Of a DNA stretch of 50,636 nt, positions 16,088-48,272 are shown piece by piece. Location: the sequence record OR472545.1; one strand, given 5' to 3'. Each line of letters begins with the position of its first letter. Position 1 is the first letter of the stretch. Below the pieces are notes generated by a model, which saw nothing but the letters and a program-made list of their open reading frames with translations, was not told the origin of the DNA and ran no database searches. The stretch comes from Escherichia phage vB_EcoM_50EP. A program made the translations under genes and the position numbers.

Positions 16088-16127
16088 TTTCTAATCCTTA
16101 TTAAGCGTGTTTCGTTTCGATGGAGTA

Positions 16128-16171
16128 ACTATACATGCAACTAGCGCCCGAGTCTTTAGCTATTCGTGCTA
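16128..16171 (-). promoter_or_regulatory. TAGCAC-box promoter cassette (minus strand) upstream of lipoprotein gene
   Basis: rc reads TAGCACGAATAGCTAAAG ... TATAGT ... CATCGAAACGAAAC. Confidence 0.45.
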
Positions 16172-16225
16172 TTGTATACGCGTAACCGCTGTAACTCGGT
16201 GTATGCAATCTCGTCCGCGGAAAAT

Positions 16226-16340
16226 GATATACGCGCAGTTACGCCTAGTTACGCGATAGTTACATTAAAATATCTATATATATCAACCTTCTACTATAAT
16301 TATTATTATTATATATATTACTGTGTATATCGTGTAACCA
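16226..16340. repeat. AT-rich control-region core with AGTTACG iteron-like repeats and (ATT)n tract; homologous to 35789..35905
   Basis: three AGTTAC(G/A) repeats at about 10-bp phasing, TAAAATATC, ATTATTATTATTAT; about 100 bp alignable with second locus. Confidence 0.5.
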
Positions 16341-16604
16341 CTTCTATAGAGTATTCCGCTTATAAATTTCTAATATGTATATTCATACAGTATCTAATCA
16401 CGCATACACTAATGCACCATCCGCGAAAAGTGGTATACACGATATACACGCTGTTTACATCAAGCCATGGCTGGGCTGGACAGCCATTTTATGTAACTAA
16501 CGCCATTGCATACACGTGATTACAAATATCTACATGTAACCACTTGACTAACGCAACCAAGCGCGTATAGTTACCCACATCAACAACGAACGAGGATTAA
16601 AGAG

Positions 16605-22320: not shown

Positions 22321-22803
22321 TTATTCTTTAGCTTTCCGTGCTGCTTCGTTTGCTGCTTTAATTTTTCGCCATGAGCGACATTCAGGCTTAGTGGCTAGTT
22401 CAGCCTCGGTGACGACGCGCAGCATGTGACGCTTTTTGCAACGCAGCGTTAGCGGCTTGCCGTTCCCGTCGAATTGCAGATCAGGGCGGCAGAATGTAGC
22501 GCGGAACCCTTCGCCAGTTCGCTTATATCGGTTGTGCGCCAGTTGAGCGCCGCGCGCCGACATCATGCCGCGCTTAAACCATTCCTCAACTGCCTGTCGA
22601 GTAACTTTTAATTGCTTCGCCATGTTCGCCTTGCTGCCGTAGAACTCAAACACAATATCAAGTCGCGCTCTTAATCCGGCCTTTACTTCATCCTTGAGAA
22701 CATAGTAACCTGACGGTCGTTTGCGCTGCTTCTTATCTTCCGTGCGGATAGTTCCGTTGTTACCGTTAAGAGTACGCTTATCATTTGCATTCATTTTCAT
22801 CAC
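22321..22803 (-). CDS. basic HTH DNA-binding protein (candidate transcription regulator)
   Basis: segment KANMAKQLKVTRQAVEEWFKRG resembles helix-turn-helix; Lys/Arg-rich; divergent from helicase promoter. Confidence 0.4.
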   Translation of the reverse strand: MMKMNANDKRTLNGNNGTIRTEDKKQRKRPSGYYVLKDEVKAGLRARLDIVFEFYGSKANMAKQLKVTRQAVEEWFKRGMMSARGAQLAHNRYKRTGEGFRATFCRPDLQFDGNGKPLTLRCKKRHMLRVVTEAELATKPECRSWRKIKAANEAARKAKE

Positions 22804-28785: not shown

Positions 28786-28959
28786 ATGGTTAAATTATTT
28801 TGCGTTAAGAACACATCTAAAACTCTGCCTTTCACTGTTAACAATCCGTACAGCGCCGAGTACCAGGGCGACGGGAACTACAAGATTTACGGCGACGATA
28901 TGACGTGGATTTTTGCGCCGATTGATGGTGCTTTGGTGGAATTCATTATAGAAGACTAA
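28786..28959 (+). CDS. small hypothetical protein (57 aa, below track threshold)
   Basis: ATG after cassette; ORF read manually. Confidence 0.3.
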   Translation: MVKLFCVKNTSKTLPFTVNNPYSAEYQGDGNYKIYGDDMTWIFAPIDGALVEFIIED

Positions 28960-29772: not shown

Positions 29773-30140
29773 TTGCAGCGGTGATTATGCTTTCTGGTTG
29801 CTCTGCTACATCGGCTCTGACTGGTTTAATTGGCAGTAAGCCAGAAATTAGCGCGCAGGCTGGGGCCGAGAACGTGAAGCAAACGGTAGGCGTTACCGGA
29901 AAGGTGGATAAGTCAAACGACAACGACACCACTATCAAAGATTCAAAGGTAGGAAAGGTTGATACGTCAAACGGGAAGTCTGTCAGCACCTCAAGCATCA
30001 AGGCTGACACTATCATCGCTGATAAGATTGAGATCAGGAATGATGACTCTAAAGGTAATCTGATTTCCGGACTGGTATTCCTGTTCATCGGCATTGCGAT
30101 GATTGCTATTTCAATCTGGCTGGAACGACGCAAAAAATAA
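29754..30140 (+). CDS. unimolecular spanin
   Basis: N-terminal lipoprotein signal (LSGC) plus C-terminal TMD in one 128-aa protein, as in T1 gp11. Confidence 0.55.
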   Translation: MFKGIVIAAVIMLSGCSATSALTGLIGSKPEISAQAGAENVKQTVGVTGKVDKSNDNDTTIKDSKVGKVDTSNGKSVSTSSIKADTIIADKIEIRNDDSKGNLISGLVFLFIGIAMIAISIWLERRKK

Positions 30141-30142
30141 AA

Positions 30143-30167
30143 GGAGCCGAAAGGCTCCCTTTTTTTA
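30143..30167. terminator. bidirectional rho-independent terminator (GGAGCCGAAAGGCTCC + T8)
   Basis: same hairpin core as 1455; between convergent lysis and accessory operons. Confidence 0.6.
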
Positions 30168-30681: not shown

Positions 30682-32265
30682 TTACCCCAGCAGTCGCGGA
30701 TTAATGTAAATTTTATCACCAATCAGGCACGTATAGTTTTTCTCATCCAGCATAGGGATCAGATGGTCTTTGATGCGAGTCATTACACCAGCCTGGCCCT
30801 CGAATGGCTTAACCTTACGCGCCGCTTCATATAGGGATCGGACACCTACAACGCCTTTCCCGTTCTTGCCTTGCTTGATCAGGATGTCAATAAGCTTGTT
30901 CATCTCCGCATGGTCGCCAGCGTGACCAGCAGCGTTTGCAGATGACAGATAAGTTTTACTCAGTTCCTGGAACATAATTACAGCTTCTTGCATTGTATCA
31001 AGCTCAATCTCTCTGGACTTCTGCGGACTTCCGCCATTGGGATTAAACCAGTTACGCACAGTGTGAAGAACAGCCGCGATCCTGATAGCCTGCTTATCGA
31101 ACTTACCCAGCGCGCCGCGAAGCATTGTGTGTGAATACTTCCCGCCGTCCGCAAGGTGAGGTTCCATATCCTGACGCGCACGGTTGAGATATTTCATCGC
31201 CGACGTGCTCACTGTCAGGTTGACTTCGTGTTCGCTCATGATCTCATGGACCAGACGGAAGTAGTCCGCCTTGAGTCCTCCATCAATCGGCTCGTATGTT
31301 GATTCGCCTTTTTCGTCAACGAATACACGCTCGCCAAGGAATGACTTCTCACGCACAAGCAAGAAACGTTCTGACACACCGATACCACGCGCACCAGCAT
31401 TCATGATCGCGTTGATTGTTTCATCCTGTGCAATTACAGAGATGCAACCCATCGCAATAAAGCTCATGTTATTGTCTGCGTTCGCACGCGCGATAGATAC
31501 GTTACCAGCATCCCATGCTTTCAGCACAAGCTCGCTGTTCGTTTTCTTTGAGCCATCACCATAGGTCATGCCTAACAGTGAGTTTACGCTCGTCGCTTCA
31601 TCCGAGATCACAGAGAAGTTACCCTGGCGGTTGTTGATTCGCGCCAGACCTTCCGGCGTGGTGTCGGATACGGGGAATACGATGTCACAAAGGCGTTCCA
31701 GTTTTTCTTCCAGTTCTTCTTTTTCCTCAAACAGTGCCGCCATGTCGGACGGTGATTTTTCCTGCTTCATCTCCTTGGATAGAGCAGATAGTTTAGCCAT
31801 AATCTTCTTGCGGTCGCGCTTTCGGATCTCGTTGAGTCGTTCAGTCTCTGCGATCATCGGGGCCAGAGAAAGTGAGTTAATGGCTGATTTACCTGTCGAT
31901 GGTGGCTGACTGGTTACGACGTAAAGAGCGGTCGGCTGTTGTGTTCCGTGATACTCAACCGTAAATCGGCCCAGCATGGCGGCTGATATGCATCCGAGGA
32001 AATGCATGTAAGCGGACGACTCGGGGAACTGAACTGAACGAGCGGCATTGCTTGACAGCTTACCAACGACATCATAATCGTTACCAAGTGAGATAACCGG
32101 ATATTTGTCACCGCCTGAGTCAATTTCTGTTGGGGCTTTCCAGAATGATTGGCTCTGCCTGTATCCGTTCGCATTGATGGCAACGCGCAAAGGTGGCAGG
32201 TTATCGGCAGCGGCTACAGCCATTACCTGATCGATAGACAATTTATCTTCGTTAAAATCAAACAT
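30682..32265 (-). CDS. P-loop NTPase, unknown family (possible replication/primase-associated ATPase)
   Basis: Walker A-like PPSTGKS; 527 aa; N- and C-terminal ends shared with mini-paralog at 36693..37262. Confidence 0.5.
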   Translation of the reverse strand: MFDFNEDKLSIDQVMAVAAADNLPPLRVAINANGYRQSQSFWKAPTEIDSGGDKYPVISLGNDYDVVGKLSSNAARSVQFPESSAYMHFLGCISAAMLGRFTVEYHGTQQPTALYVVTSQPPSTGKSAINSLSLAPMIAETERLNEIRKRDRKKIMAKLSALSKEMKQEKSPSDMAALFEEKEELEEKLERLCDIVFPVSDTTPEGLARINNRQGNFSVISDEATSVNSLLGMTYGDGSKKTNSELVLKAWDAGNVSIARANADNNMSFIAMGCISVIAQDETINAIMNAGARGIGVSERFLLVREKSFLGERVFVDEKGESTYEPIDGGLKADYFRLVHEIMSEHEVNLTVSTSAMKYLNRARQDMEPHLADGGKYSHTMLRGALGKFDKQAIRIAAVLHTVRNWFNPNGGSPQKSREIELDTMQEAVIMFQELSKTYLSSANAAGHAGDHAEMNKLIDILIKQGKNGKGVVGVRSLYEAARKVKPFEGQAGVMTRIKDHLIPMLDEKNYTCLIGDKIYINPRLLG

Positions 32266-34126: not shown

Positions 34127-34296
34127 TTCTTCTTTGCCTTCTCAATTGCTTTCTGTGTGATTTCAAAGCTGCTTTGTAGGTCGGATTCTGTTTTGCGGCT
34201 CATGTTTAGATCGCTTGCTGTAAGTCTATACCCTGGTCGCGAGATTCCCGCTACAACCTGCATATCACCACAATTCAAATCGGATGGCTTGAGCAT
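34123..34296 (-). CDS. small hypothetical protein (57 aa, below track threshold), translationally coupled to the methyltransferase-like gene
   Basis: manually translated; ATGA overlap at 34123-34126 and TAATG overlap at 34294-34298. Confidence 0.3.
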   Translation of the reverse strand: MLKPSDLNCGDMQVVAGISRPGYRLTASDLNMSRKTESDLQSSFEITQKAIEKAKKK

Positions 34297-34535
34297 TATT
34301 TCACCTCATCAAACGTTGCGATACCAGGGATAAACATTCCGACCTTCCAGCCTGCGATAGCAATCCAGCCAGAATCGTGCTTGTGCGGTCTCTCAGCGCC
34401 ATTAATCACCCATTCGTTCGGGATTGTCTTACCGTTAATGATTAGCGCCTCAGCGTCGTATACAGAGCCTTTTACGAACGGTGTCAAAACCTTCTTGTCG
34501 GTGCTGGTGATTACGTTAGTGCATTTTACTTTCAT
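34296..34535 (-). CDS. hypothetical protein
   Basis: 79-aa ORF in operon. Confidence 0.4.
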   Translation of the reverse strand: MKVKCTNVITSTDKKVLTPFVKGSVYDAEALIINGKTIPNEWVINGAERPHKHDSGWIAIAGWKVGMFIPGIATFDEVK

Positions 34536-35275: not shown

Positions 35276-35458
35276 TTACATGTGTTTCATGTAGAAAGCG
35301 ATTTCACGGATGTTGTCCTCTGGATGAGCCTTCACGACTACCGCGAACATCTTCTCAACCAGCGACTTGGTGCTCTCAGGGTTGTAACCTTCCTGGACCA
35401 GCATGGCGATAGTGTTTTCGATGGTAACTGGTGAGTTCTTGTTGATGCGCTTAGCCAT
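35276..35458 (-). CDS. hypothetical protein
   Basis: 60-aa ORF after cassette. Confidence 0.35.
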   Translation of the reverse strand: MAKRINKNSPVTIENTIAMLVQEGYNPESTKSLVEKMFAVVVKAHPEDNIREIAFYMKHM

Positions 35459-35494
35459 GATGATTTCCTTTAGTGCGTGCCGTTTCGATGAGGT

Positions 35495-35538
35495 AATAAT
35501 AGCTAATCACTCCTGATCGGTCATTAGCAAAAAGTGCT
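35495..35538 (-). promoter_or_regulatory. TAGCAC-box promoter cassette (minus)
   Basis: rc: TAGCACTTTTTGCTAATG ... TATTAT ... CATCGAAACGGCAC. Confidence 0.45.
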
Positions 35539-35552
35539 ATTCGTTCGATTTA

Positions 35553-35665
35553 TGGATTGTTGCAGCTATTGCAATGATTAACTTCACTATTGCACATATA
35601 GCAATATTGCATCCTTTGCAATGACGTTTTCGATTGTTGCGAATTGAGCAATGATTCATTGATGG
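35553..35665. repeat. cluster of at least 7 TTGCA(A/T) / GCAATGATT direct and inverted repeats
   Basis: ATTGTTGCAGCTATTGCAATGATTAACTTCACTATTGCACATATAGCAATATTGCATCCTTTGCAATGACG...TTGCGAATTGAGCAATGATTC. Confidence 0.5.
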
Positions 35666-35788
35666 GGGGAATGATGGGGTGAGATCTGATCCCCTGATCG
35701 CCTGGTAGGATTTTCCCGCCACACGTTTCTAGCGCATACGCGTTATGCATGTTATGCTCTGTAGACAAATCCATCCGGCGTGGAATCA

Positions 35789-35905
35789 GGTACGCATATA
35801 ACGCCTATTTACGCTATGGTTACAATAAAATATCCTTATATAACAACCCTTTATCTATATTATTATTATTATTATATATATATGTAGATAATGTAGATAA
35901 GGGAT
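35789..35905. repeat. AT-rich control-region core with GGTTACA motifs and (ATT)n tract; homologous to 16226..16340
   Basis: TTTACGCTATGGTTACAATAAAATATCC...ATTATTATTATTATTATATATATAT alignable with first locus. Confidence 0.5.
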
Positions 35906-36174
35906 ACGAGATATTGCGATAGTTTTCTATGATACATTCTGACACTTGTAAGAATGGGATGACATTGTAGGAATAAAAAGGCATATATGGGGCAATCCTC
36001 CGCGAAATTTGATGTACAAGCTGTACACAGTGGTTACATTGAGCTATATCTGGCCCGAGAGGTCGCAAAACGTAACTAAGTCGAACATTTGCATCAATAA
36101 CACTTGATAACATGTAACCACGCTGGTAATATTGCACCCATCTTAACGAAGACCACCAATCAGGAGTAACATCT

Positions 36175-36696
36175 ATGTCAAATCATAATCAACCCGTAAG
36201 CCTGGGCGATGTCGTCCGCTACATGGCGGAGCAGGCGCTCAAGTCCGAGAACCGCAGCTACCACGTTCCAATCCACCTGATAGCTCGCCAGATGTACGGC
36301 CTCACGGCTGATGATATGGGCAGAATCAATGCCGACGACCTTGAGGCTGGCGGTAAGTACAGCGTTGCAAAGCTGAAAGCCTCGTACGTCTCTAACACGG
36401 TTGCCAGGATGCCAGAGATTCAGGCGGCGAACGTTCGGGCCAAGCTGTCAATCAAGGATGGCGACTTCGGGGATGATGTAGATGTTCGATGTGCTTACAT
36501 CACCCTGGTTGATGGTGCGATCCAGACCGGAACACGACACAAGGGTGACGCGGAAAAGGAGGCGGTCATCGTTGAAAGGTTCAAGTCTCGGTTGCTCAAG
36601 ATCACACCGAACGTCATCGACCTGCAAGGTGAGCAGAAAGAAGGTGCGCTCATTGCCCTGGCTCGCTACCATGAAATGATCAAGGATACTAAATGA
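36175..36696 (+). CDS. hypothetical early protein
   Basis: 173-aa ORF, first gene after AT-rich region, RBS AGGAG. Confidence 0.45.
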   Translation: MSNHNQPVSLGDVVRYMAEQALKSENRSYHVPIHLIARQMYGLTADDMGRINADDLEAGGKYSVAKLKASYVSNTVARMPEIQAANVRAKLSIKDGDFGDDVDVRCAYITLVDGAIQTGTRHKGDAEKEAVIVERFKSRLLKITPNVIDLQGEQKEGALIALARYHEMIKDTK

Positions 36697-37262
36697 TGAG
36701 CATGTTTGATTTCAGTGAAGATAAACTAACAGATGAGCAGGTGATTGAAGTTGCCATGATTGATGGTCTACTTCCGCTGCGAGTTGCGATCAGTCATAAC
36801 GGATACCGACAGTCGTTCAAATACTGGTGCAGCGCGGAAGAGATGCTTCGTGTCAAGCTCGACAGAAAGCTCGCCGTCGTCACCCATAAGATACACGACC
36901 AGGCGAAAAGAGGTAAGGGAGTTGTAGGCATTCGATCAACATACGAGGCGATCAGGAAGTTGCATCCTTTCGTCGGGCGCAATGGTGTCATGAATGACCT
37001 GAATGATAACATTCTGCCAGCGCTCCAGGGCGCCGGAATAATTTGCGTTATTGGTGACAAGATATATGCTCACCCTGCATTGGTTGGTATGGATGGTCGC
37101 GACGTCTATAAGTGGTGCAACGCCTGGCGCGCTGTGGAGCGCCGCAAATCTCAGAGCAAATTGCAGTCCAGCTCAGATCTGATTCATGGCTATGATGCAG
37201 ATGAGGTCAGAAAGGCCATCCAGTTCTACCGGAAAGCGAAATCTCTCCTGAACGGTGAATAG
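36693..37262 (+). CDS. mini-paralog of the P-loop ATPase (N- and C-terminal segments only, ATPase core absent)
   Basis: MFDFSEDKLTDEQV...LPLRVAI..NGYRQS and KRGKGVVGIRSTYEA...GDKIYAHPALVG align to the ends of the 30682..32265 product. Confidence 0.45.
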   Translation: MMSMFDFSEDKLTDEQVIEVAMIDGLLPLRVAISHNGYRQSFKYWCSAEEMLRVKLDRKLAVVTHKIHDQAKRGKGVVGIRSTYEAIRKLHPFVGRNGVMNDLNDNILPALQGAGIICVIGDKIYAHPALVGMDGRDVYKWCNAWRAVERRKSQSKLQSSSDLIHGYDADEVRKAIQFYRKAKSLLNGE

Positions 37263-46152: not shown

Positions 46153-46689
46153 ATGAAAGACGAAAACTTCACCAGTCACGCGAACGAGAAGGTTCGAATC
46201 GGTAACTTCAAAGAGCTATACAATAAAAAGTATGGCGACATTGCCAACCTGAACCATCGTCACCCAATGACGCCTGAGACTGTATTCAACCTTGCGGTTA
46301 AATATTTCTCATGGGCCGAGGATCAGGCAATTAAGGCAATCGAAACGGCGAGCTTCCAGGGCGTTGTCACTGAGAACCTAGTGCACAAGCCGCGAGTGTT
46401 CACGCTCAACGGCTTCCAGCTTTATTGCGGCGTTACCTCCGGTGCGATCCAAAGCTGGCGCGCGTCGCCTGGATTCTCTGAGGTAATGGAGTTCATCGAC
46501 TCAGTAATTATTGAACAGAAATATCAGTTAGCTGCGTCCAACCTTATCAACGCAGGATTCGTAGGCAAAGACATTGGTATCGACAAGGCGGCAGAAGTGA
46601 ACGTGCAGAACAACGTATCTGCTGGCGCGGTGTCCGTGACTACTGATGAATTTAAAGAAGCCGTTAAGGATATTTTGGGGGAATTATGA
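46153..46689 (+). CDS. terminase small subunit
   Basis: 178-aa ORF immediately upstream of and overlapping the large terminase. Confidence 0.55.
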   Translation: MKDENFTSHANEKVRIGNFKELYNKKYGDIANLNHRHPMTPETVFNLAVKYFSWAEDQAIKAIETASFQGVVTENLVHKPRVFTLNGFQLYCGVTSGAIQSWRASPGFSEVMEFIDSVIIEQKYQLAASNLINAGFVGKDIGIDKAAEVNVQNNVSAGAVSVTTDEFKEAVKDILGEL

Positions 46690-48272
46690 TCCAGTGGGAA
46701 GATCTCGACCTTGCAAGAAAGCAGGCAATAAAGGCGCTCTCTGAGCAGTCATTCGAAAAGATGTTACGAATCTGGTTCCAGATCGGGCAGGCTCAGAAGT
46801 TCCAAAGCAACTGGCACTTCACTTACCTTTGCTGGAAGGTTGAGCAGATCATCAAAGGCGAGGCTCAGAACGTGATATTCAACATCACGCCAGGTTCCGG
46901 CAAAACTGAGATCTTCTCCATCCACATGCCAGTGTACGGGATGTTAAAGAGTCCGAAGGTTCGAAATTTGAACCTTTCGTTCTCTGACAGTCTGGTGAAG
47001 GATAACGGGATCAGGACGCGTGAGATTATCGGTTGCGATGAGTTCCAGGAGCTATGGCCTACCAAACTGGCTAAGGCGTCCGGTGGCGATATTACCGCAC
47101 TGAACGATAACGATAAGGCGTGGCTGACGTTAACATCACGTGCGATCGGCGGCCAGGTAACTGGTAAGCGTGGCGGGTACATGGAAGACCCCAGTAAACC
47201 CTGGAGCTTTACCGGAATGTTAACGCTTGATGACCCCGACAAACCGAAAGACATGTATTCGTCCGTTAAGCGCAAGGCGGCTCATACACTGCTAAAAAAC
47301 ACCGTGCGATCACGTCGTATGACTGACAGGACGCCATGCGTTGTTGTGCAGCAGCGACTGCACGTTAACGACTCGACGTGGTTCCTGATGAATGGCGGTA
47401 TGGGTGGCATGAAGTTTGAGCAGGTAATCATTCCGGCGCTGGTAACTGAGGAATACAGAGACACGCTTCCTGACTGGTTGAAAGAGGAATTTGATAAAGA
47501 CGTGCTATCGTCCCCGTCGGTAATGATTGACGGTGTTGAGCACTTCTCTTTCTGGCCTGCGAAGGAAAGCGCAGAAAGCCTACTGGCGTTGCGCGAAGCT
47601 GACCTGTACACCTTCGAGTCTCAGTATCAGCAGAAGCCCATTGCGCTTGGTGGCAATGCGTTTAAGTCGGACTGGTTCCAGTATTACGGCGACGGCGAGA
47701 AAGCCAATATGCCAAAACCGGATCGCTTCGAATACCTTTTTACCACTGCGGATACTGCGCAGAAGGCCGAGGAAATTCACGACTACAGCGTCTTTGTTTT
47801 GTGGGGCAAGTATAAGGATCGCGTATATTTCATCGACGGCATTCGCGGTAAGTGGGAAGCGCCGGACCTTGAGACGATGGCCCTTAACTTTTATGGCAAC
47901 TGCTTTAAGTGGGCGAAGGAGAACAAGACGTCATTACGCAAGGTTTACATTGAAGACAAGGCGAGCGGTACGGGCCTGATCCAGTCAATTAACAAGAAGC
48001 TCCCGATTGACATCACGCCAGTGCAGCGAGATACCGACAAGGTTACGCGTGCAATGGACGCAGCGCCAATCATGAAAGCAGGGCGAATCGTTTTTCCTGA
48101 ATCTCACCCAATGCTTACTGAAATGGAAGCGGAACTGGTAGGCTTCACCTTTGATGATAGCCATCCTCACGATGATATAGTGGATAACGTGGTTGATGCT
48201 GGAAACTTCGAAATGAACTTGCTTGATGATCCGGTAGCACGAATGAAACGATTAGCGGGAATGCGCAAATAA
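46686..48272 (+). CDS. terminase large subunit
   Basis: 528 aa; P-loop-like GSGKTE and C-terminal acidic nuclease-like region; followed by portal. Confidence 0.7.
   Translation: MIQWEDLDLARKQAIKALSEQSFEKMLRIWFQIGQAQKFQSNWHFTYLCWKVEQIIKGEAQNVIFNITPGSGKTEIFSIHMPVYGMLKSPKVRNLNLSFSDSLVKDNGIRTREIIGCDEFQELWPTKLAKASGGDITALNDNDKAWLTLTSRAIGGQVTGKRGGYMEDPSKPWSFTGMLTLDDPDKPKDMYSSVKRKAAHTLLKNTVRSRRMTDRTPCVVVQQRLHVNDSTWFLMNGGMGGMKFEQVIIPALVTEEYRDTLPDWLKEEFDKDVLSSPSVMIDGVEHFSFWPAKESAESLLALREADLYTFESQYQQKPIALGGNAFKSDWFQYYGDGEKANMPKPDRFEYLFTTADTAQKAEEIHDYSVFVLWGKYKDRVYFIDGIRGKWEAPDLETMALNFYGNCFKWAKENKTSLRKVYIEDKASGTGLIQSINKKLPIDITPVQRDTDKVTRAMDAAPIMKAGRIVFPESHPMLTEMEAELVGFTFDDSHPHDDIVDNVVDAGNFEMNLLDDPVARMKRLAGMRK

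What the first reader, a model, noticed from the sequence alone, without database searches (positions are those of the whole stretch)
35459..36174. AT-rich divergent control region 2: second copy of the AT-rich core plus a dense TTGCA(A/T) repeat cluster
The region separating the minus-strand accessory block from the plus-strand early genes holds a 110-bp cluster of at least 7 TTGCA/TGCAA motifs (35553-35665, including two GCAATGATT copies), a GGGGTGAGATCTGATCCCC inverted repeat, the homolog of the region-1 core (35789-35905) with (ATT)n and GGTTACA motifs, and further CATGTAACCAC/GGTTACA copies near 36040-36120. Two homologous control regions 19.6 kb apart, both divergent, could be paired origins, a duplicated early promoter region, or recombination hotspots that generated the inverted accessory block.
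Basis: seen in the sequence. Interest (0 to 1): 0.6.

Follow-up and report, generated by a model that had tools for sequence, protein, structure and literature searches.

The report
T1-phage packaging site plus origin-like element
This 716-base gene-free stretch of a T1-like coliphage holds the place where DNA packaging starts, two outward-facing promoters, and one of two very strongly conserved AT-rich repeat elements that are the best candidates so far for the unknown replication origins of this phage family.

Summary
The window is a whole T1-like (Drexlerviridae, Nouzillyvirus) genome.

Region 2 (35459-36174) is non-coding and composite. It contains:
- a leftward promoter of the known T1-family "21-nt repeat" type;
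- four 15-bp dyads, TTGC-N7-GCAA, at fixed 30/17/30 spacing;
- a G/T-rich tract with the genome's only triple-GATC cluster, where relatives have their mapped pac ends;
- an iteron / AT-core / iteron module homologous to region 1 (alignment z = 33 against shuffles);
- a plain sigma-70 early promoter.

In all six complete genomes examined, the two AT cores are the two least stable DNA segments.

Against Braunvirinae phages, most proteins are 40-65% identical and synonymous sites are saturated. The region 1 island is nevertheless 88-91% identical and the dyad array 84-86%.

Two unlinked proteins are also unusually conserved: a Cro-type helix-turn-helix protein (88-91%) and a DUF3987 protein (93%) that models as an MCM-like helicase with a winged helix.

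My best reading is a pac region joined to one of two paralogous replication-origin-like elements (pac about 0.8, origin about 0.5). The main rival is that these are early-transcription operator regions. Recombination hotspots, RNA genes and chance similarity are rejected.

The parts
35459..35541 (-). Leftward promoter and leader for gene 35276-35458. It holds the T1-family 21-nt repeat (35520-35541; dyad TAGCA-N5-TGCTA at 35525-35539), the -10 hexamer TATTAT (35496-35501) and the leader CATCGAAACGG.
   Evidence: Repeat families D1, D6 and D18. Promoter scan. Among 22 matches to the repeat, 19 have a 5-6/6 match to the -10 consensus 29-31 nt after the dyad centre. The repeat was described in the TLS paper PMC11447400.
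35560..35651 (.). Array of four 15-bp dyad-symmetric sites, TTGC-N7-GCAA (35560-35574, 35590-35604, 35607-35621, 35637-35651), with start-to-start spacing of 30, 17 and 30 nt.
   Evidence: The same spacing is found in Msk and TH21 and in 13 of 13 IMG/VR loci whose DUF3987 is at least 90% identical and which reach this region. The block is 84-86% identical to Msk/12397V, where synonymous sites are at or near saturation (pS 0.60 in the co-conserved genes, 0.75-0.84 in typical genes).
35652..35699 (+). G/T-rich TGAT tract with the conserved motif GAATGATGG (35669-35677), the only triple-GATC cluster of the genome (GATC starts 35683, 35688, 35696) and the imperfect inverted repeat GGGGTGAGATCTGATCCCC. 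This is the predicted pac cleavage zone (about 35680-35692), with packaging proceeding rightward.
   Evidence: Msk PhageTerm start at 36,862 lies 39 nt after dyad 4. The PhageTerm-reorganised UDF157lw record ends 33 nt after it, and the Rao1 record 29 nt after it. The T1 record opens here with repeat_region 1-2800. GATC clustering. The zone itself is poorly conserved, at 33-37%.
35790..35825 (+). Iteron set A: four phased repeats with a 9-10 nt period (GTACGCATAT / AACGCCTAT / TTACGCTATG / GTTACAAT). It is homologous to 16229-16264 in region 1.
   Evidence: The ACGC and TAC columns are conserved in 10 diverse Drexlerviridae.
35822..35900 (.). AT-rich core containing (ATT)n and (TA)n. GC is 0.20 over 100 nt (35796-35895). 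This is the candidate DNA-unwinding element, paralogous to 16262-16330.
   Evidence: The region 1 and region 2 cores are the two lowest-GC 100-nt windows in the window and in CJ19, Msk, 12397V, T1 and TLS. Duplex free energy over 60 nt is -56.6 and -55.6 kcal/mol, against a genome mean of -83.4 +/- 5.0. Repeat family D9: 81% over 72 nt.
35935..35976 (.). Conserved block found only in region 2, with three TGT(A/C)(A/G)GAAT half-sites: an inverted pair at 35935-35944 and 35947-35956, plus 35967-35975. It looks like an operator. Function unknown.
   Evidence: (I11). Identity is 78-84% across 35919-35998, and 98% to 12397V at 35939-35978.
36000..36040 (+). TCCGCGAAA followed by iteron set B: TGTACAAGC / TGTACACAG / TGGTTACAT, with a 9-10 nt period. 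It is homologous to 16421-16460 in region 1.
   Evidence: Triple repeats stand at the same place in T1 (CGATTAACA x3) and TLS (CGTGAACA x2 plus GGAACA).
36104..36174 (+). Rightward sigma-70 early promoter TTGATA-17-TAATAT (36104-36132), with CATGTAACCAC (36111-36121) in its spacer. It is followed by the leader CATCTTAACGAAG, the Shine-Dalgarno AGGAG, and the start codon at 36175.
   Evidence: The -35, the spacer motif ACAYGTAA and the -10 are conserved across genera.
16172..16604 (.). Region 1, the paralogue of 35720-36174. Its conserved island runs 16180-16520: iteron set A, AT core, inverted iteron arms 16321-16340 and 16431-16451. The exo promoter TTGACT-16-TATAGT lies at 16544-16571.
22321..22803 (-). 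Cro-type helix-turn-helix protein (160 aa) encoded between primase and helicase. It is a candidate binder of the dyad array and/or the iterons. It is unusually conserved, as the cis elements are.
   Evidence: Weak Pfam hits to P22_Cro and YdaS. PHROG family "transcriptional regulator". Profile hits to P22 Cro and related Cro structures. 88-91% identical to Braunvirinae, where most proteins are 40-65%. The recognition helix is the most variable part between clades.
30682..32265 (-). DUF3987 protein (527 aa): an MCM-like AAA+ helicase with a C-terminal winged helix. It is unusually conserved, as the cis elements are.
46153..46689 (+). Small terminase (TerS), P22 gp3 family. This is the packaging protein that must recognise pac.
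   Evidence: Pfam GP3_package, 34.4 bits against a cut-off of 29.4. Pairwise identity is about 55% among the window, Msk and T1.

Best explanation
Region 2 is the "left-end" control region of a T1-like phage. It is made of five adjoining cis elements.

1. **Leftward promoter.** It belongs to the family's 21-nt-repeat class. Its dyad sits about 42 nt upstream of the transcription start, the position typical of an activator site.

2. **Dyad array.** Four TTGC-N7-GCAA sites form a landing pad for a dimeric, phage-encoded DNA-binding protein. The Cro-type HTH protein 22321-22803 is the most likely binder. TerS is not excluded.

3. **Packaging start.** Immediately to the right lies a G/T-rich TGAT tract with three GATC sites. 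Here terminase makes the first (pac) cut, and headful packaging proceeds rightward.

4. **Origin-like module.** Phased iterons flank the least stable DNA of the genome on both sides. Region 1 holds a second, even better conserved copy. I propose these are the two replication origins, or an origin plus a cis helper, as in SPP1 oriL/oriR or P4 ori/crr. The divergent promoters on each side would supply negative supercoiling. The phage proteins would open the AT core and load the MCM-like DUF3987 helicase, with the separate zinc-ribbon primase priming synthesis.

5. **Early promoter.** A plain sigma-70 promoter for the small early genes, with one iteron-like site (CATGTAACCAC) in its spacer. This would tie early transcription to occupancy by the same protein.

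**What is shown and what is inferred.**
- Shown here: the sequence anatomy, the paralogy, the extreme conservation, the unusual conservation of the two proteins in the same phage set, and the fold of the helicase.
- Shown in relatives only, from the literature: the pac ends.
- Inferred: who binds what, origin activity, and the role of Dam.

The confidence of 0.5 is for the composite reading as a whole. Taken separately, I put the pac assignment at about 0.8 and origin function of the paralogous islands at about 0.5.
For: **pac.**
- The T1 reference record opens inside the homologous spacer and annotates 1-2800 as the terminal repeat.
- TLS pac was restriction-mapped to the same spacer.
- The Msk PhageTerm forward start lies 39 nt after dyad 4. 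The PhageTerm-reorganised UDF157lw genome ends 33 nt after it.
- For SU57, a step in read coverage falls in the same untranslated region.
- A TerS of the gp3 family is encoded in the window.

**Origin-like module.**
- Homology of region 1 and region 2 gives z = 33.
- The two cores are the two lowest-GC windows in 6 of 6 complete genomes, more than 5 SD less stable than the genome mean.
- In 14 region 1 upstream sequences printed, from the 42 distinct ones, the AT core lies about 350 nt upstream of exo.
- Clade-specific short repeats are shared by region 1 and region 2 of the same genome: GTTACA in the window and T1, GAACA/GTGAAC in TLS.
- Two iteron sets flank the AT core, as in PICI origins (PMC6092414).
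- The region 1 island is 88-91% identical and the array 84-86% identical to Msk/12397V. Flanking genes are 30-45% identical at the nucleotide level. Synonymous sites have pS of 0.60 in the co-conserved genes and 0.75-0.84 elsewhere.
- The only proteins at least 86% identical to both Braunvirinae phages are the Cro-type HTH, DUF3987 and a 79-aa protein. They lie at unlinked loci.
- The same set of phages carries the array, the region 1 island and the conserved versions of both proteins.
- DUF3987 models as an MCM-like helicase with a winged helix, the type used by SCCmec and SaPI replicons.
- The primase zinc ribbon is homologous to that of P4 alpha.
- No origin has been identified for this family.
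Against: - There is no experimental evidence for replication initiation anywhere in this family, and none can be obtained with these tools.
- Region 1 lacks the dyad array. The two copies are therefore not equivalent, and the binder of the iterons is unknown.
- The AT core lies 140-170 nt from the array, unlike lambda ori.
- Both regions also carry two of the few plain sigma-70 promoters, and an iteron-like site touches each. A purely transcriptional role for a Cro-type regulator therefore explains much of the same data.
- The covariation rests on a few deep clades: the clade with DUF3987 at least 90% identical, the TLS-like clade, T1, and one intermediate phage.
- TerS is 55% identical between phages that share the array. 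That neither supports nor excludes TerS binding.
- The pac cut position is transferred from relatives, across a stretch that is itself poorly conserved (33-37%).
Confidence: 0.5

Rival explanations
1. The two homologous islands are early-transcription control regions, not origins. Operators for the Cro-type protein would switch off or tune the two host-polymerase early promoters, much as lambda OL and OR are two homologous operator regions. The AT core would serve only as a bendable or UP-like spacer.
For: - Each region ends in a plain sigma-70 promoter, while nearly all other promoters carry the 21-nt dyad. [quoted passage not shown]
- CATGTAACCAC lies in the spacer of the region 2 promoter and abuts the -35 of the region 1 promoter.
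- The spacer motif ACAYGTAA is conserved across genera.
- The unusually conserved protein has a Cro-type HTH.
Against: - The conserved island spans 340 nt and is best conserved 250-400 nt upstream of the exo promoter. The promoter zone itself is about 40% identical.
- Near base-by-base conservation of the least stable DNA of the genome is not expected of a spacer.
- An MCM-like helicase is unusually conserved across the same phages.
- The layout of iterons flanking an AT core matches known origins.
Confidence: 0.3
2. The TTGC-N7-GCAA array is the recognition site of the small terminase, that is, the pac signal proper, and has nothing to do with replication or transcription.
For: - It is the only strongly conserved sequence within 100 nt of the mapped ends in Msk and UDF157lw.
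- Multi-site pac signals are known from established knowledge: the SPP1 pacL/pacR boxes and the P1 hexamers.
Against: - TerS is equally distant (54-57%) between the window, Msk and T1. Yet the window and Msk share a near-identical array, and T1 has only two sites plus different repeats.
- TLS-like phages carry TAGACCGATTGGTCTA dyads in that position. They share the G/T-rich TGAT tract with all clades, which fits a conserved TerS better.
- Presence of the array coincides with the conserved versions of the Cro-type HTH and DUF3987.
- Dyad symmetry suits an HTH dimer.
Confidence: 0.3
3. The repeats are recombination or module-exchange hotspots. They would be kept similar by frequent exchange, and they produced the inverted gene block.
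For: - Conserved non-coding islands lie between highly diverged genes.
- The co-conserved genes have lower synonymous divergence (pS 0.42-0.62) than the rest (0.75-0.84). This suggests an old exchange of that gene set.
Against: - Orthologous copies cluster across genomes, and the paralogues within a genome are only 73% identical.
- The islands diverge about ten times less than synonymous sites, even those of the co-conserved genes.
- The gene block is ancestral in T1 and TLS and is not bounded by the two repeats.
Confidence: 0.05
4. The conserved islands encode small non-coding RNAs or small proteins.
For: - RNA folding of the region 1 island gives z = -3.6.
- A terminator-like hairpin lies at 16467-16487.
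- Some GenBank records annotate open reading frames here.
Against: - The fold signal is symmetric on both strands (z = -3.1 on the minus strand). Inverted iteron arms explain it.
- The right part of region 2 gives z = -1.2.
- There is no Rfam match at either threshold.
- The hairpin is not maintained in ESCO41, judged by eye from the alignment.
- Open reading frames in region 2 show no codon-position bias and have in-frame stops in relatives.
Confidence: 0.04

Closest known systems
Bacillus phage SPP1 oriL / oriR (bound by gp38)
   Same: A virulent, pac-packaging siphovirus with two origins 13 kb apart. The two have similar organisation: direct repeats plus an AT-rich unwinding element. Those AT islands are among the strongest compositional features of the genome, and one origin lies in a non-coding spacer (PMC6316719).
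   Different: The SPP1 initiator gp38 and its DnaB-type helicase gp40 are unrelated to the proteins here. oriL lies inside the initiator gene. Origin activity is proven for SPP1 and only inferred here.
Satellite phage P4 ori and crr (bound by the alpha protein)
   Same: Two separated cis regions share the same short iterons (TGTTCACC) next to AT-rich DNA. The primase zinc ribbon of this phage is homologous to that of P4 alpha (36% identity, E = 3e-12). TLS-like relatives use GTGAACA repeats that resemble the P4 iteron.
   Different: The helicase here is DUF3987/MCM-like. It shows no detectable similarity to the D5_N / DUF5906 / Pox_D5 part of alpha. Primase and helicase are separate genes. The iterons of the window differ (GTTACA, TACAC, TTACGC).
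Origins of PICI/SaPI satellites and SCCmec (Pri-Rep, Cch)
   Different: Those origins are single and lie next to the rep gene. Here the elements are duplicated and lie 4-15 kb from the helicase gene. An extra Cro-type protein is unusually conserved along with them.
Lambda ori (four dyad-symmetric iterons plus an AT-rich region) and lambda OL/OR
   Same: There are four dyad sites in a row in the same spacer as an AT-rich segment. There are two homologous divergent control regions, together with a Cro-type protein. The comparison rests on established knowledge of lambda.
   Different: The AT core is 140-170 nt from the array and not inside an initiator gene. Pfam and NCBIfam scans of ten window proteins, including the replication-gene candidates, found no O-like protein. 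Region 1 has no dyad array.
T1 / TLS pac region and the T1-family 21-nt repeats
   Same: The position is the same as the pac-proximal end of T1 and TLS. The left edge carries the published repeat aaATAGCACnnnTTGnTAAAA.
   Different: The papers read here do not describe the four-dyad array, the paralogy with region 1, or the conservation pattern. They state that no origin was found.
P1 pac (Dam-methylated TGATCA/G hexamers control cleavage)
   Same: The genome's only triple-GATC cluster sits at the predicted cut. The same holds in TH21 and TLS, and the phage encodes a Dam methylase.
   Different: There are three sites, not seven, and no flanking symmetry around a central cut is known. Relatives without a Dam homologue (Msk, 12397V) have no cluster yet still package from the same place.

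Membership tests
pac site of a headful-packaging phage | Virion DNA ends, or a step in read coverage, map to the site | not testable with these tools
   No reads are available for this phage. In relatives, the ends map 29-39 nt after the fourth dyad (Msk, UDF157lw, Rao1). The T1 and TLS records open in the same spacer.
pac site of a headful-packaging phage | The genome encodes a pac-type small terminase and a large terminase | tested here: met
   TerS matches GP3_package (PF16677) at 34.4 bits, above the cut-off of 29.4. A large terminase gene lies at 46686-48272.
pac site of a headful-packaging phage | The small terminase binds a defined sequence at the site | tested here: inconclusive
   The conserved array does not follow TerS divergence. 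The G/T-rich TGAT tract is shared by all clades.
iteron-type replication origin | Several phased copies of a short repeat | tested here: met
   Set A has four repeats at a 9-10 nt period (35790-35825). Set B has three (36013-36040). Region 1 has the same sets. GTTACA/TGTAAC has 8 of its 26 genome copies in 0.9 kb.
iteron-type replication origin | An adjacent AT-rich DNA-unwinding element | tested here: met
   The two cores are the two lowest-GC and least stable windows in 6 of 6 genomes.
iteron-type replication origin | A cognate initiator whose specificity covaries with the repeats | tested here: inconclusive
   The Cro-type HTH and the MCM-like DUF3987 are unusually conserved in the same phages as the islands, and differ in clades with different repeats. 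Only a few independent clades are available, and there are no binding data.
iteron-type replication origin | Replication initiates there, or the element supports autonomous replication | not testable with these tools
   This needs marker-frequency analysis, 2D gels or plasmid replication assays.
P4 ori/crr system | An alpha-type primase-helicase with a Pox_D5 origin-binding C-terminus | tested here: not met
   Only the primase zinc ribbon is homologous. DUF3987 shows no similarity to alpha. The alpha domains are listed.
P4 ori/crr system | Type-1 iteron TGTTCACC in both cis regions | tested here: not met
   The P4 repeats are confirmed in NC_001609. The window uses other words. Only TLS-like relatives have GTGAACA.
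lambda-type ori | Four dyad iterons directly followed by the AT-rich region, inside the initiator gene | tested here: not met
   Four dyads are present. The AT core, however, is 140-170 nt away, the region is non-coding, and Pfam and NCBIfam scans of ten window proteins found no O-like protein.
T1-family 21-nt repeat promoter | Match to aaATAGCACnnnTTGnTAAAA, oriented with transcription, upstream of a gene | tested here: met
   On the minus strand at 35540 the match has 1 mismatch. The -10 TATTAT begins 31 nt after the dyad centre, and the conserved leader follows.
sigma-70 promoter (early class) | -35 and -10 hexamers with a 16-18 nt spacer, conserved in relatives | tested here: met
   TTGATA-17-TAATAT, preceded by TG, at 36104-36132. 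It aligns with TTGAC(T/C)-17-(-10) in 8 other phages. Activity was not tested.

The most novel reading that the evidence does not exclude
The T1 family replicates from two paralogous, strongly conserved origins, or from an origin plus a distant cis helper. A Cro-type helix-turn-helix protein would recognise them and load an MCM-like DUF3987 helicase. One origin is fused to the packaging start, whose cleavage is gated by Dam methylation of a unique GATC cluster. This would be the first identification of the replication origins and initiator set of Drexlerviridae. It would also be an example of an MCM-like helicase system with a dispersed, co-conserved set of specificity elements.
Probability: 0.35. 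Interest if true: 0.7.

Novelty: new variant of a known kind. Interest (0 to 1): 0.55.

Why it matters
T1 is a classic phage and a notorious laboratory and fermenter contaminant. Its relatives are also widely proposed for therapy. Even so, recent papers still state that no replication origin has been found and that the function of its repeats is unknown.

This analysis gives precise, testable coordinates for the packaging start, the early promoters and two candidate origins. It also names two candidate proteins.

The conservation pattern is unusual. Non-coding DNA is 85-95% identical between phages whose proteins are about 50% identical. That makes these islands useful markers and engineering landmarks, for example for rebooting or minimising T1-like genomes, or for designing phage-dependent plasmids.

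Tried and rejected
**RNA genes.**
- Rfam at gathering and at E-value thresholds gave no match. There are no tRNA genes.
- The RNA structure signal in region 1 is equal on both strands, and inverted iterons explain it. The right part of region 2 is not significant.

**Coding potential.** Open reading frames in region 2 (35550-35774, 35749-35922, 35820-36137, 35537-35722) show no codon-position bias and have in-frame stops in relatives.

**P4-like system.** DUF3987 is not similar to P4 alpha. Sequence searches of DUF3987 against solved structures found nothing, so I used fold comparison instead.

**Plasmid origins.** The region 1 island has no match in 72,556 plasmids.

**GC skew.** It only follows the direction of transcription.

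**Record start positions.** Many GenBank records start at the array only because authors copy the T1 orientation. I therefore counted only ends based on PhageTerm or mapping.

**Separating the two candidate binders.** I tried to tell the Cro-type protein from DUF3987 using the intermediate phage (contig 2706796100: DUF3987 85%, Cro-type 69%). It lacks both the array and a detectable region 1 island, so it does not separate them.

**Literature.** The Rtp genome paper was not available. No paper was found on transcription-start mapping or origins in this family.

**Not done systematically.** I looked for DnaA and IHF boxes by eye only and found no convincing sites in the window.
Full report
**1. 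What the window is**

The window is a complete, circularly permuted genome of a T1-like phage. The nearest record is Escherichia phage CJ19 (Drexlerviridae, Nouzillyvirus), 95% identical over region 2.

Region 2 (35459-36174) lies between a minus-strand gene that starts at 35458 and a plus-strand gene that starts at 36175. Region 1 (16088-16604) lies between a cor-like lipoprotein gene on the minus strand and the exonuclease VIII gene on the plus strand.

**2. Check of the observation**

All listed motifs are present.

- TTGCA/TGCAA density reaches 7 per 113 nt only here. The genome mean is 0.33, and no other window reaches 5.
- The motifs resolve into four dyads, TTGC-N7-GCAA, at 35560, 35590, 35607 and 35637. 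The genome holds 9 matches against 1.79 +/- 1.46 expected, with four of them inside 92 nt.
- The G4...C4 inverted repeat is imperfect and is conserved only in the nearest relatives.

**3. Region 2 is non-coding**

Open reading frames inside it have no third-position bias and acquire in-frame stops in relatives. No Rfam family or tRNA matches.

**4. Anatomy, left to right**

*(a) Leftward promoter.* Positions 35520-35541 on the minus strand carry the published T1-family 21-nt repeat.

I find that this repeat is a dyad, TAGCA-N5-TGCTA. Among 22 matches to the repeat, 19 have a 5-6/6 match to the -10 consensus 29-31 nt after the dyad centre. That places the centre near -42, the geometry of an activator-dependent promoter.

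*(b) The four-dyad array.* In an alignment of 14 phages the whole block is nearly invariant.

*(c) The packaging zone.* This is a G/T-rich TGAT tract with the conserved motif GAATGA(A/T)RG, followed by three GATC sites within 17 nt (35683-35699). It is the only such cluster in the genome.

*(d) Iteron set A.* After a poorly conserved gap come ACGCGT and four phased TTACGC-like repeats (35790-35825).

*(e) The AT core* (35822-35900).

*(f) A block specific to region 2* with three TGTAGGAAT-like half-sites (35935-35976).

*(g) Iteron set B.* TCCGCGAAA is followed by three phased TGTACA / GGTTACA repeats (36000-36040).

*(h) Rightward sigma-70 promoter.* TTGATA-17-TAATAT, with CATGTAACCAC in its spacer, then a leader resembling the family leader.

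Region 1 has elements (d), (e), (g) and its own sigma-70 promoter. It lacks (b), (c) and (f).

**5. The packaging start**

Several independent lines place pac here.

- The T1 reference record opens inside the homologous spacer, with G + TTGCATGGTGTGCAA, and marks 1-2800 as the terminal repeat.
- TLS pac was restriction-mapped, and its record opens in the same spacer.
- For Msk, PhageTerm reported forward headful packaging starting at 36,862. That is 39 nt after the fourth dyad.
- The UDF157lw record was reorganised according to PhageTerm and ends 33 nt after the fourth dyad.
- For SU57, the authors chose the PhageTerm end that coincided with a step in read frequency, which places the terminal repeat in this untranslated region.

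Many other records begin here only by convention, so I did not count them.

Transferred to the window, the cut should fall at about 35680-35692, with packaging rightward. This step is an inference by homology, and that stretch is only 33-37% identical to Msk.

**6. The paralogous AT-core elements**

- In the window, CJ19, Msk, 12397V, T1 and TLS, the two lowest-GC 100-nt windows of the whole genome are exactly the region 1 and region 2 cores: GC 0.14-0.21, against 0.23-0.28 for the third lowest.
- In the window their 60-nt duplex stability is more than 5 SD below the genome mean.
- In region 1 upstream sequences from diverse T1-like phages, the core lies about 350 nt upstream of the exo gene. 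The exo promoter is a near-consensus TTGACT-N17-TATAAT.
- An unbiased k-mer test shows that, after pure A/T words, the most enriched words are clade-specific and shared by region 1 and region 2 of the same genome. These are GTTACA/TGTAAC in the window (8 of 26 genome copies) and in T1 (9 of 24), and GAACA/GTGAAC in TLS.
- Triple 9-10-nt-period repeats stand at the same relative place in all three clades.

**7. Conservation**

Compared with the Braunvirinae phages Msk and 12397V, window proteins are mostly 40-65% identical. Synonymous sites are saturated, with pS of 0.75-0.84.

The non-coding elements are far more conserved.

| Segment | Identity to Msk / 12397V |
|---|---|
| Region 1 island 16180-16360 | 88-91% |
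| Region 1 island 16361-16520 | 71-72% (65-88% in 40-nt windows) |
| Flanking cor and exo genes, exo promoter | 30-45% |
| 21-nt dyad plus array, 35524-35655 | 84-86% |
| Region 2 block 35919-35998 | 78-84% |
| Iteron set A plus AT core, 35790-35900 | 71-77% |

Orthologous region 1 cores cluster across genomes (89-92%). Region 1 against region 2 within a genome is 73%. The duplication is therefore old and each copy is maintained separately.

The region 1 island occurs in 112 phage records, all T1-like, and in no plasmid.

**8. Proteins that are unusually conserved in the same phages**

Only three proteins are at least 86% identical to both Braunvirinae phages:

- the Cro-type HTH protein 22321-22803 (88-91%);
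- DUF3987 30682-32265 (93%);
- a 79-aa protein, 34296-34535 (86-89%).

These genes have pS of 0.42-0.62 and dN/dS of about 0.04-0.06. They are old and strongly constrained, and somewhat younger than the rest of the genome. Even so, the islands diverge roughly ten times less than these genes' synonymous sites.

In IMG/VR, 13 of 13 loci whose DUF3987 is at least 90% identical and which reach region 2 have the four dyads at 30/17/30 spacing. These loci come from Rtp-like, Rogue1-like, phiEB49, Sf12, e4/1c, Sd1 and IME542 phages. The same contigs have the Cro-type protein at 84-93%. The region 1 island is detectable in the loci that extend far enough to contain it.

Other clades carry something else in the array position.
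- TLS-like phages (DUF3987 71%, Cro-type about 50%) carry two TAGACCGATTGGTCTA dyads.
- T1 and one intermediate phage carry ATTATTCCA repeats.

TerS is equally distant (54-57%) among the window, Msk and T1. It therefore does not follow the array.

**9. What the two proteins are**

The small protein matches the HTH of P22 Cro and related Cro structures. Its recognition helix is the most variable segment between clades.

DUF3987 gives a confident AlphaFold2 model, with pLDDT 87.6 and pTM 0.85.
- The Foldseek top 50 PDB hits are all MCM subunits.
- The C-terminal 70 residues have winged-helix topology and match ORC/Cdc6 winged helices.

The separate primase shares its zinc ribbon with P4 alpha. 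DUF3987 is not related to the alpha helicase part.

**10. Interpretation**

The pac assignment is well supported (about 0.8).

For the paralogous islands, the combination of features matches known iteron origins:
- iterons on both sides of the least stable DNA;
- two copies per genome across the family;
- near base-by-base purifying selection;
- unusual conservation, in the same phages, of a replicative-type helicase and a sequence-specific HTH protein.

The precedents are the two origins of SPP1, P4 ori/crr and PICI origins. Divergent promoters on each side would favour opening of the AT core; this step is inference.

I put the origin reading at about 0.5. The main rival (about 0.3) is that these are operator regions through which the Cro-type protein controls the few host-polymerase early promoters. 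The two readings are not mutually exclusive.

The binder of the dyad array is unresolved. Dyad symmetry and the conservation pattern point to the Cro-type protein. Proximity to the cut keeps TerS in play.

Recombination hotspots, RNA genes and chance similarity are rejected.

**11. Novelty**

The pac location and the 21-nt repeats are known. The following were not found in the papers I could search or read, which state that the origin is unknown:
- the four-dyad array;
- the family-wide paralogy;
- the conservation pattern and the unusually conserved proteins;
- the MCM-like nature of DUF3987 as part of that set.

Noticed in passing
window, 22 sites (for example 17642, 25399, 37259, 43630; minus strand 16172, 32980, 35069, 35540): The published T1-family 21-nt repeat is a dyad, TAGCA-N5-TGCTA. 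Among 22 matches, 19 have a strong -10 hexamer 29-31 nt after the dyad centre, so the centre lies near -42. This suggests binding sites for an unidentified phage activator, which bears on an open question raised in the TLS paper. The pac-side dyads (TTGCA-N5-TGCAA) differ from it by one base per half-site.
   Followed up: partly
window 35683-35699; TH21 L004 23629-23641; TLS L067 49856-49880; CJ19 L001 41370-41383: The only triple-GATC cluster of the genome (one of two in CJ19) sits at the pac zone in phages that encode Dam. Msk and 12397V lack a Dam homologue, have only 60-66 GATC sites in total, and have no cluster. This is a lead for P1-like control of pac cleavage by methylation.
   Followed up: partly
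[not shown]
   Followed up: yes
window 35935-35976: A conserved block found only in region 2, with an inverted pair and a third copy of TGT(A/C)(A/G)GAAT. It is up to 98% identical to 12397V and absent from region 1. Function unknown.
   Followed up: partly
window 16321-16340 and 16431-16451: Region 1 contains 20-nt inverted arms (TGTGTATATCGTGTAACCAC / GTGGTATACACGATATACACG) about 90 nt apart. The arms are made of TATACAC/GTTACAC repeats. They account for the symmetric RNA/DNA folding signal.
   Followed up: partly
TH21 locus L004 23405-24200: TH21 is 97% identical to the window through the array (window 35459-35729). Its sequence to the right is different, as is its first early gene (34% identical), although it keeps TTACGC repeats and an AT core. 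This marks a recombination junction just right of the pac zone.
   Followed up: no
TLS L067 1-588 and 28707-29117; P4 L068 9310-9413: TLS-like phages use GTGAACA/TGTTCAC repeats in both regions. These resemble the P4 type-1 iteron TGTTCACC, although the helicases are unrelated.
   Followed up: partly
window 34296-34535 (-) and 28786-28959 (+): Two small proteins of unknown function, a 79-aa protein (PHROG 4448) and a 57-aa protein (DUF7244), are also unusually conserved (86-89% and 80%). They may belong to the same functional set.
   Followed up: no
window 30134-30163 and 1451-1480: Near-identical GC-rich hairpins (GGAGCCGAAAGGCTCC) flanked by A and T runs. The one at 30.15 kb lies at the convergent junction that ends the minus-strand block, and it looks like a bidirectional terminator.
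   Followed up: no
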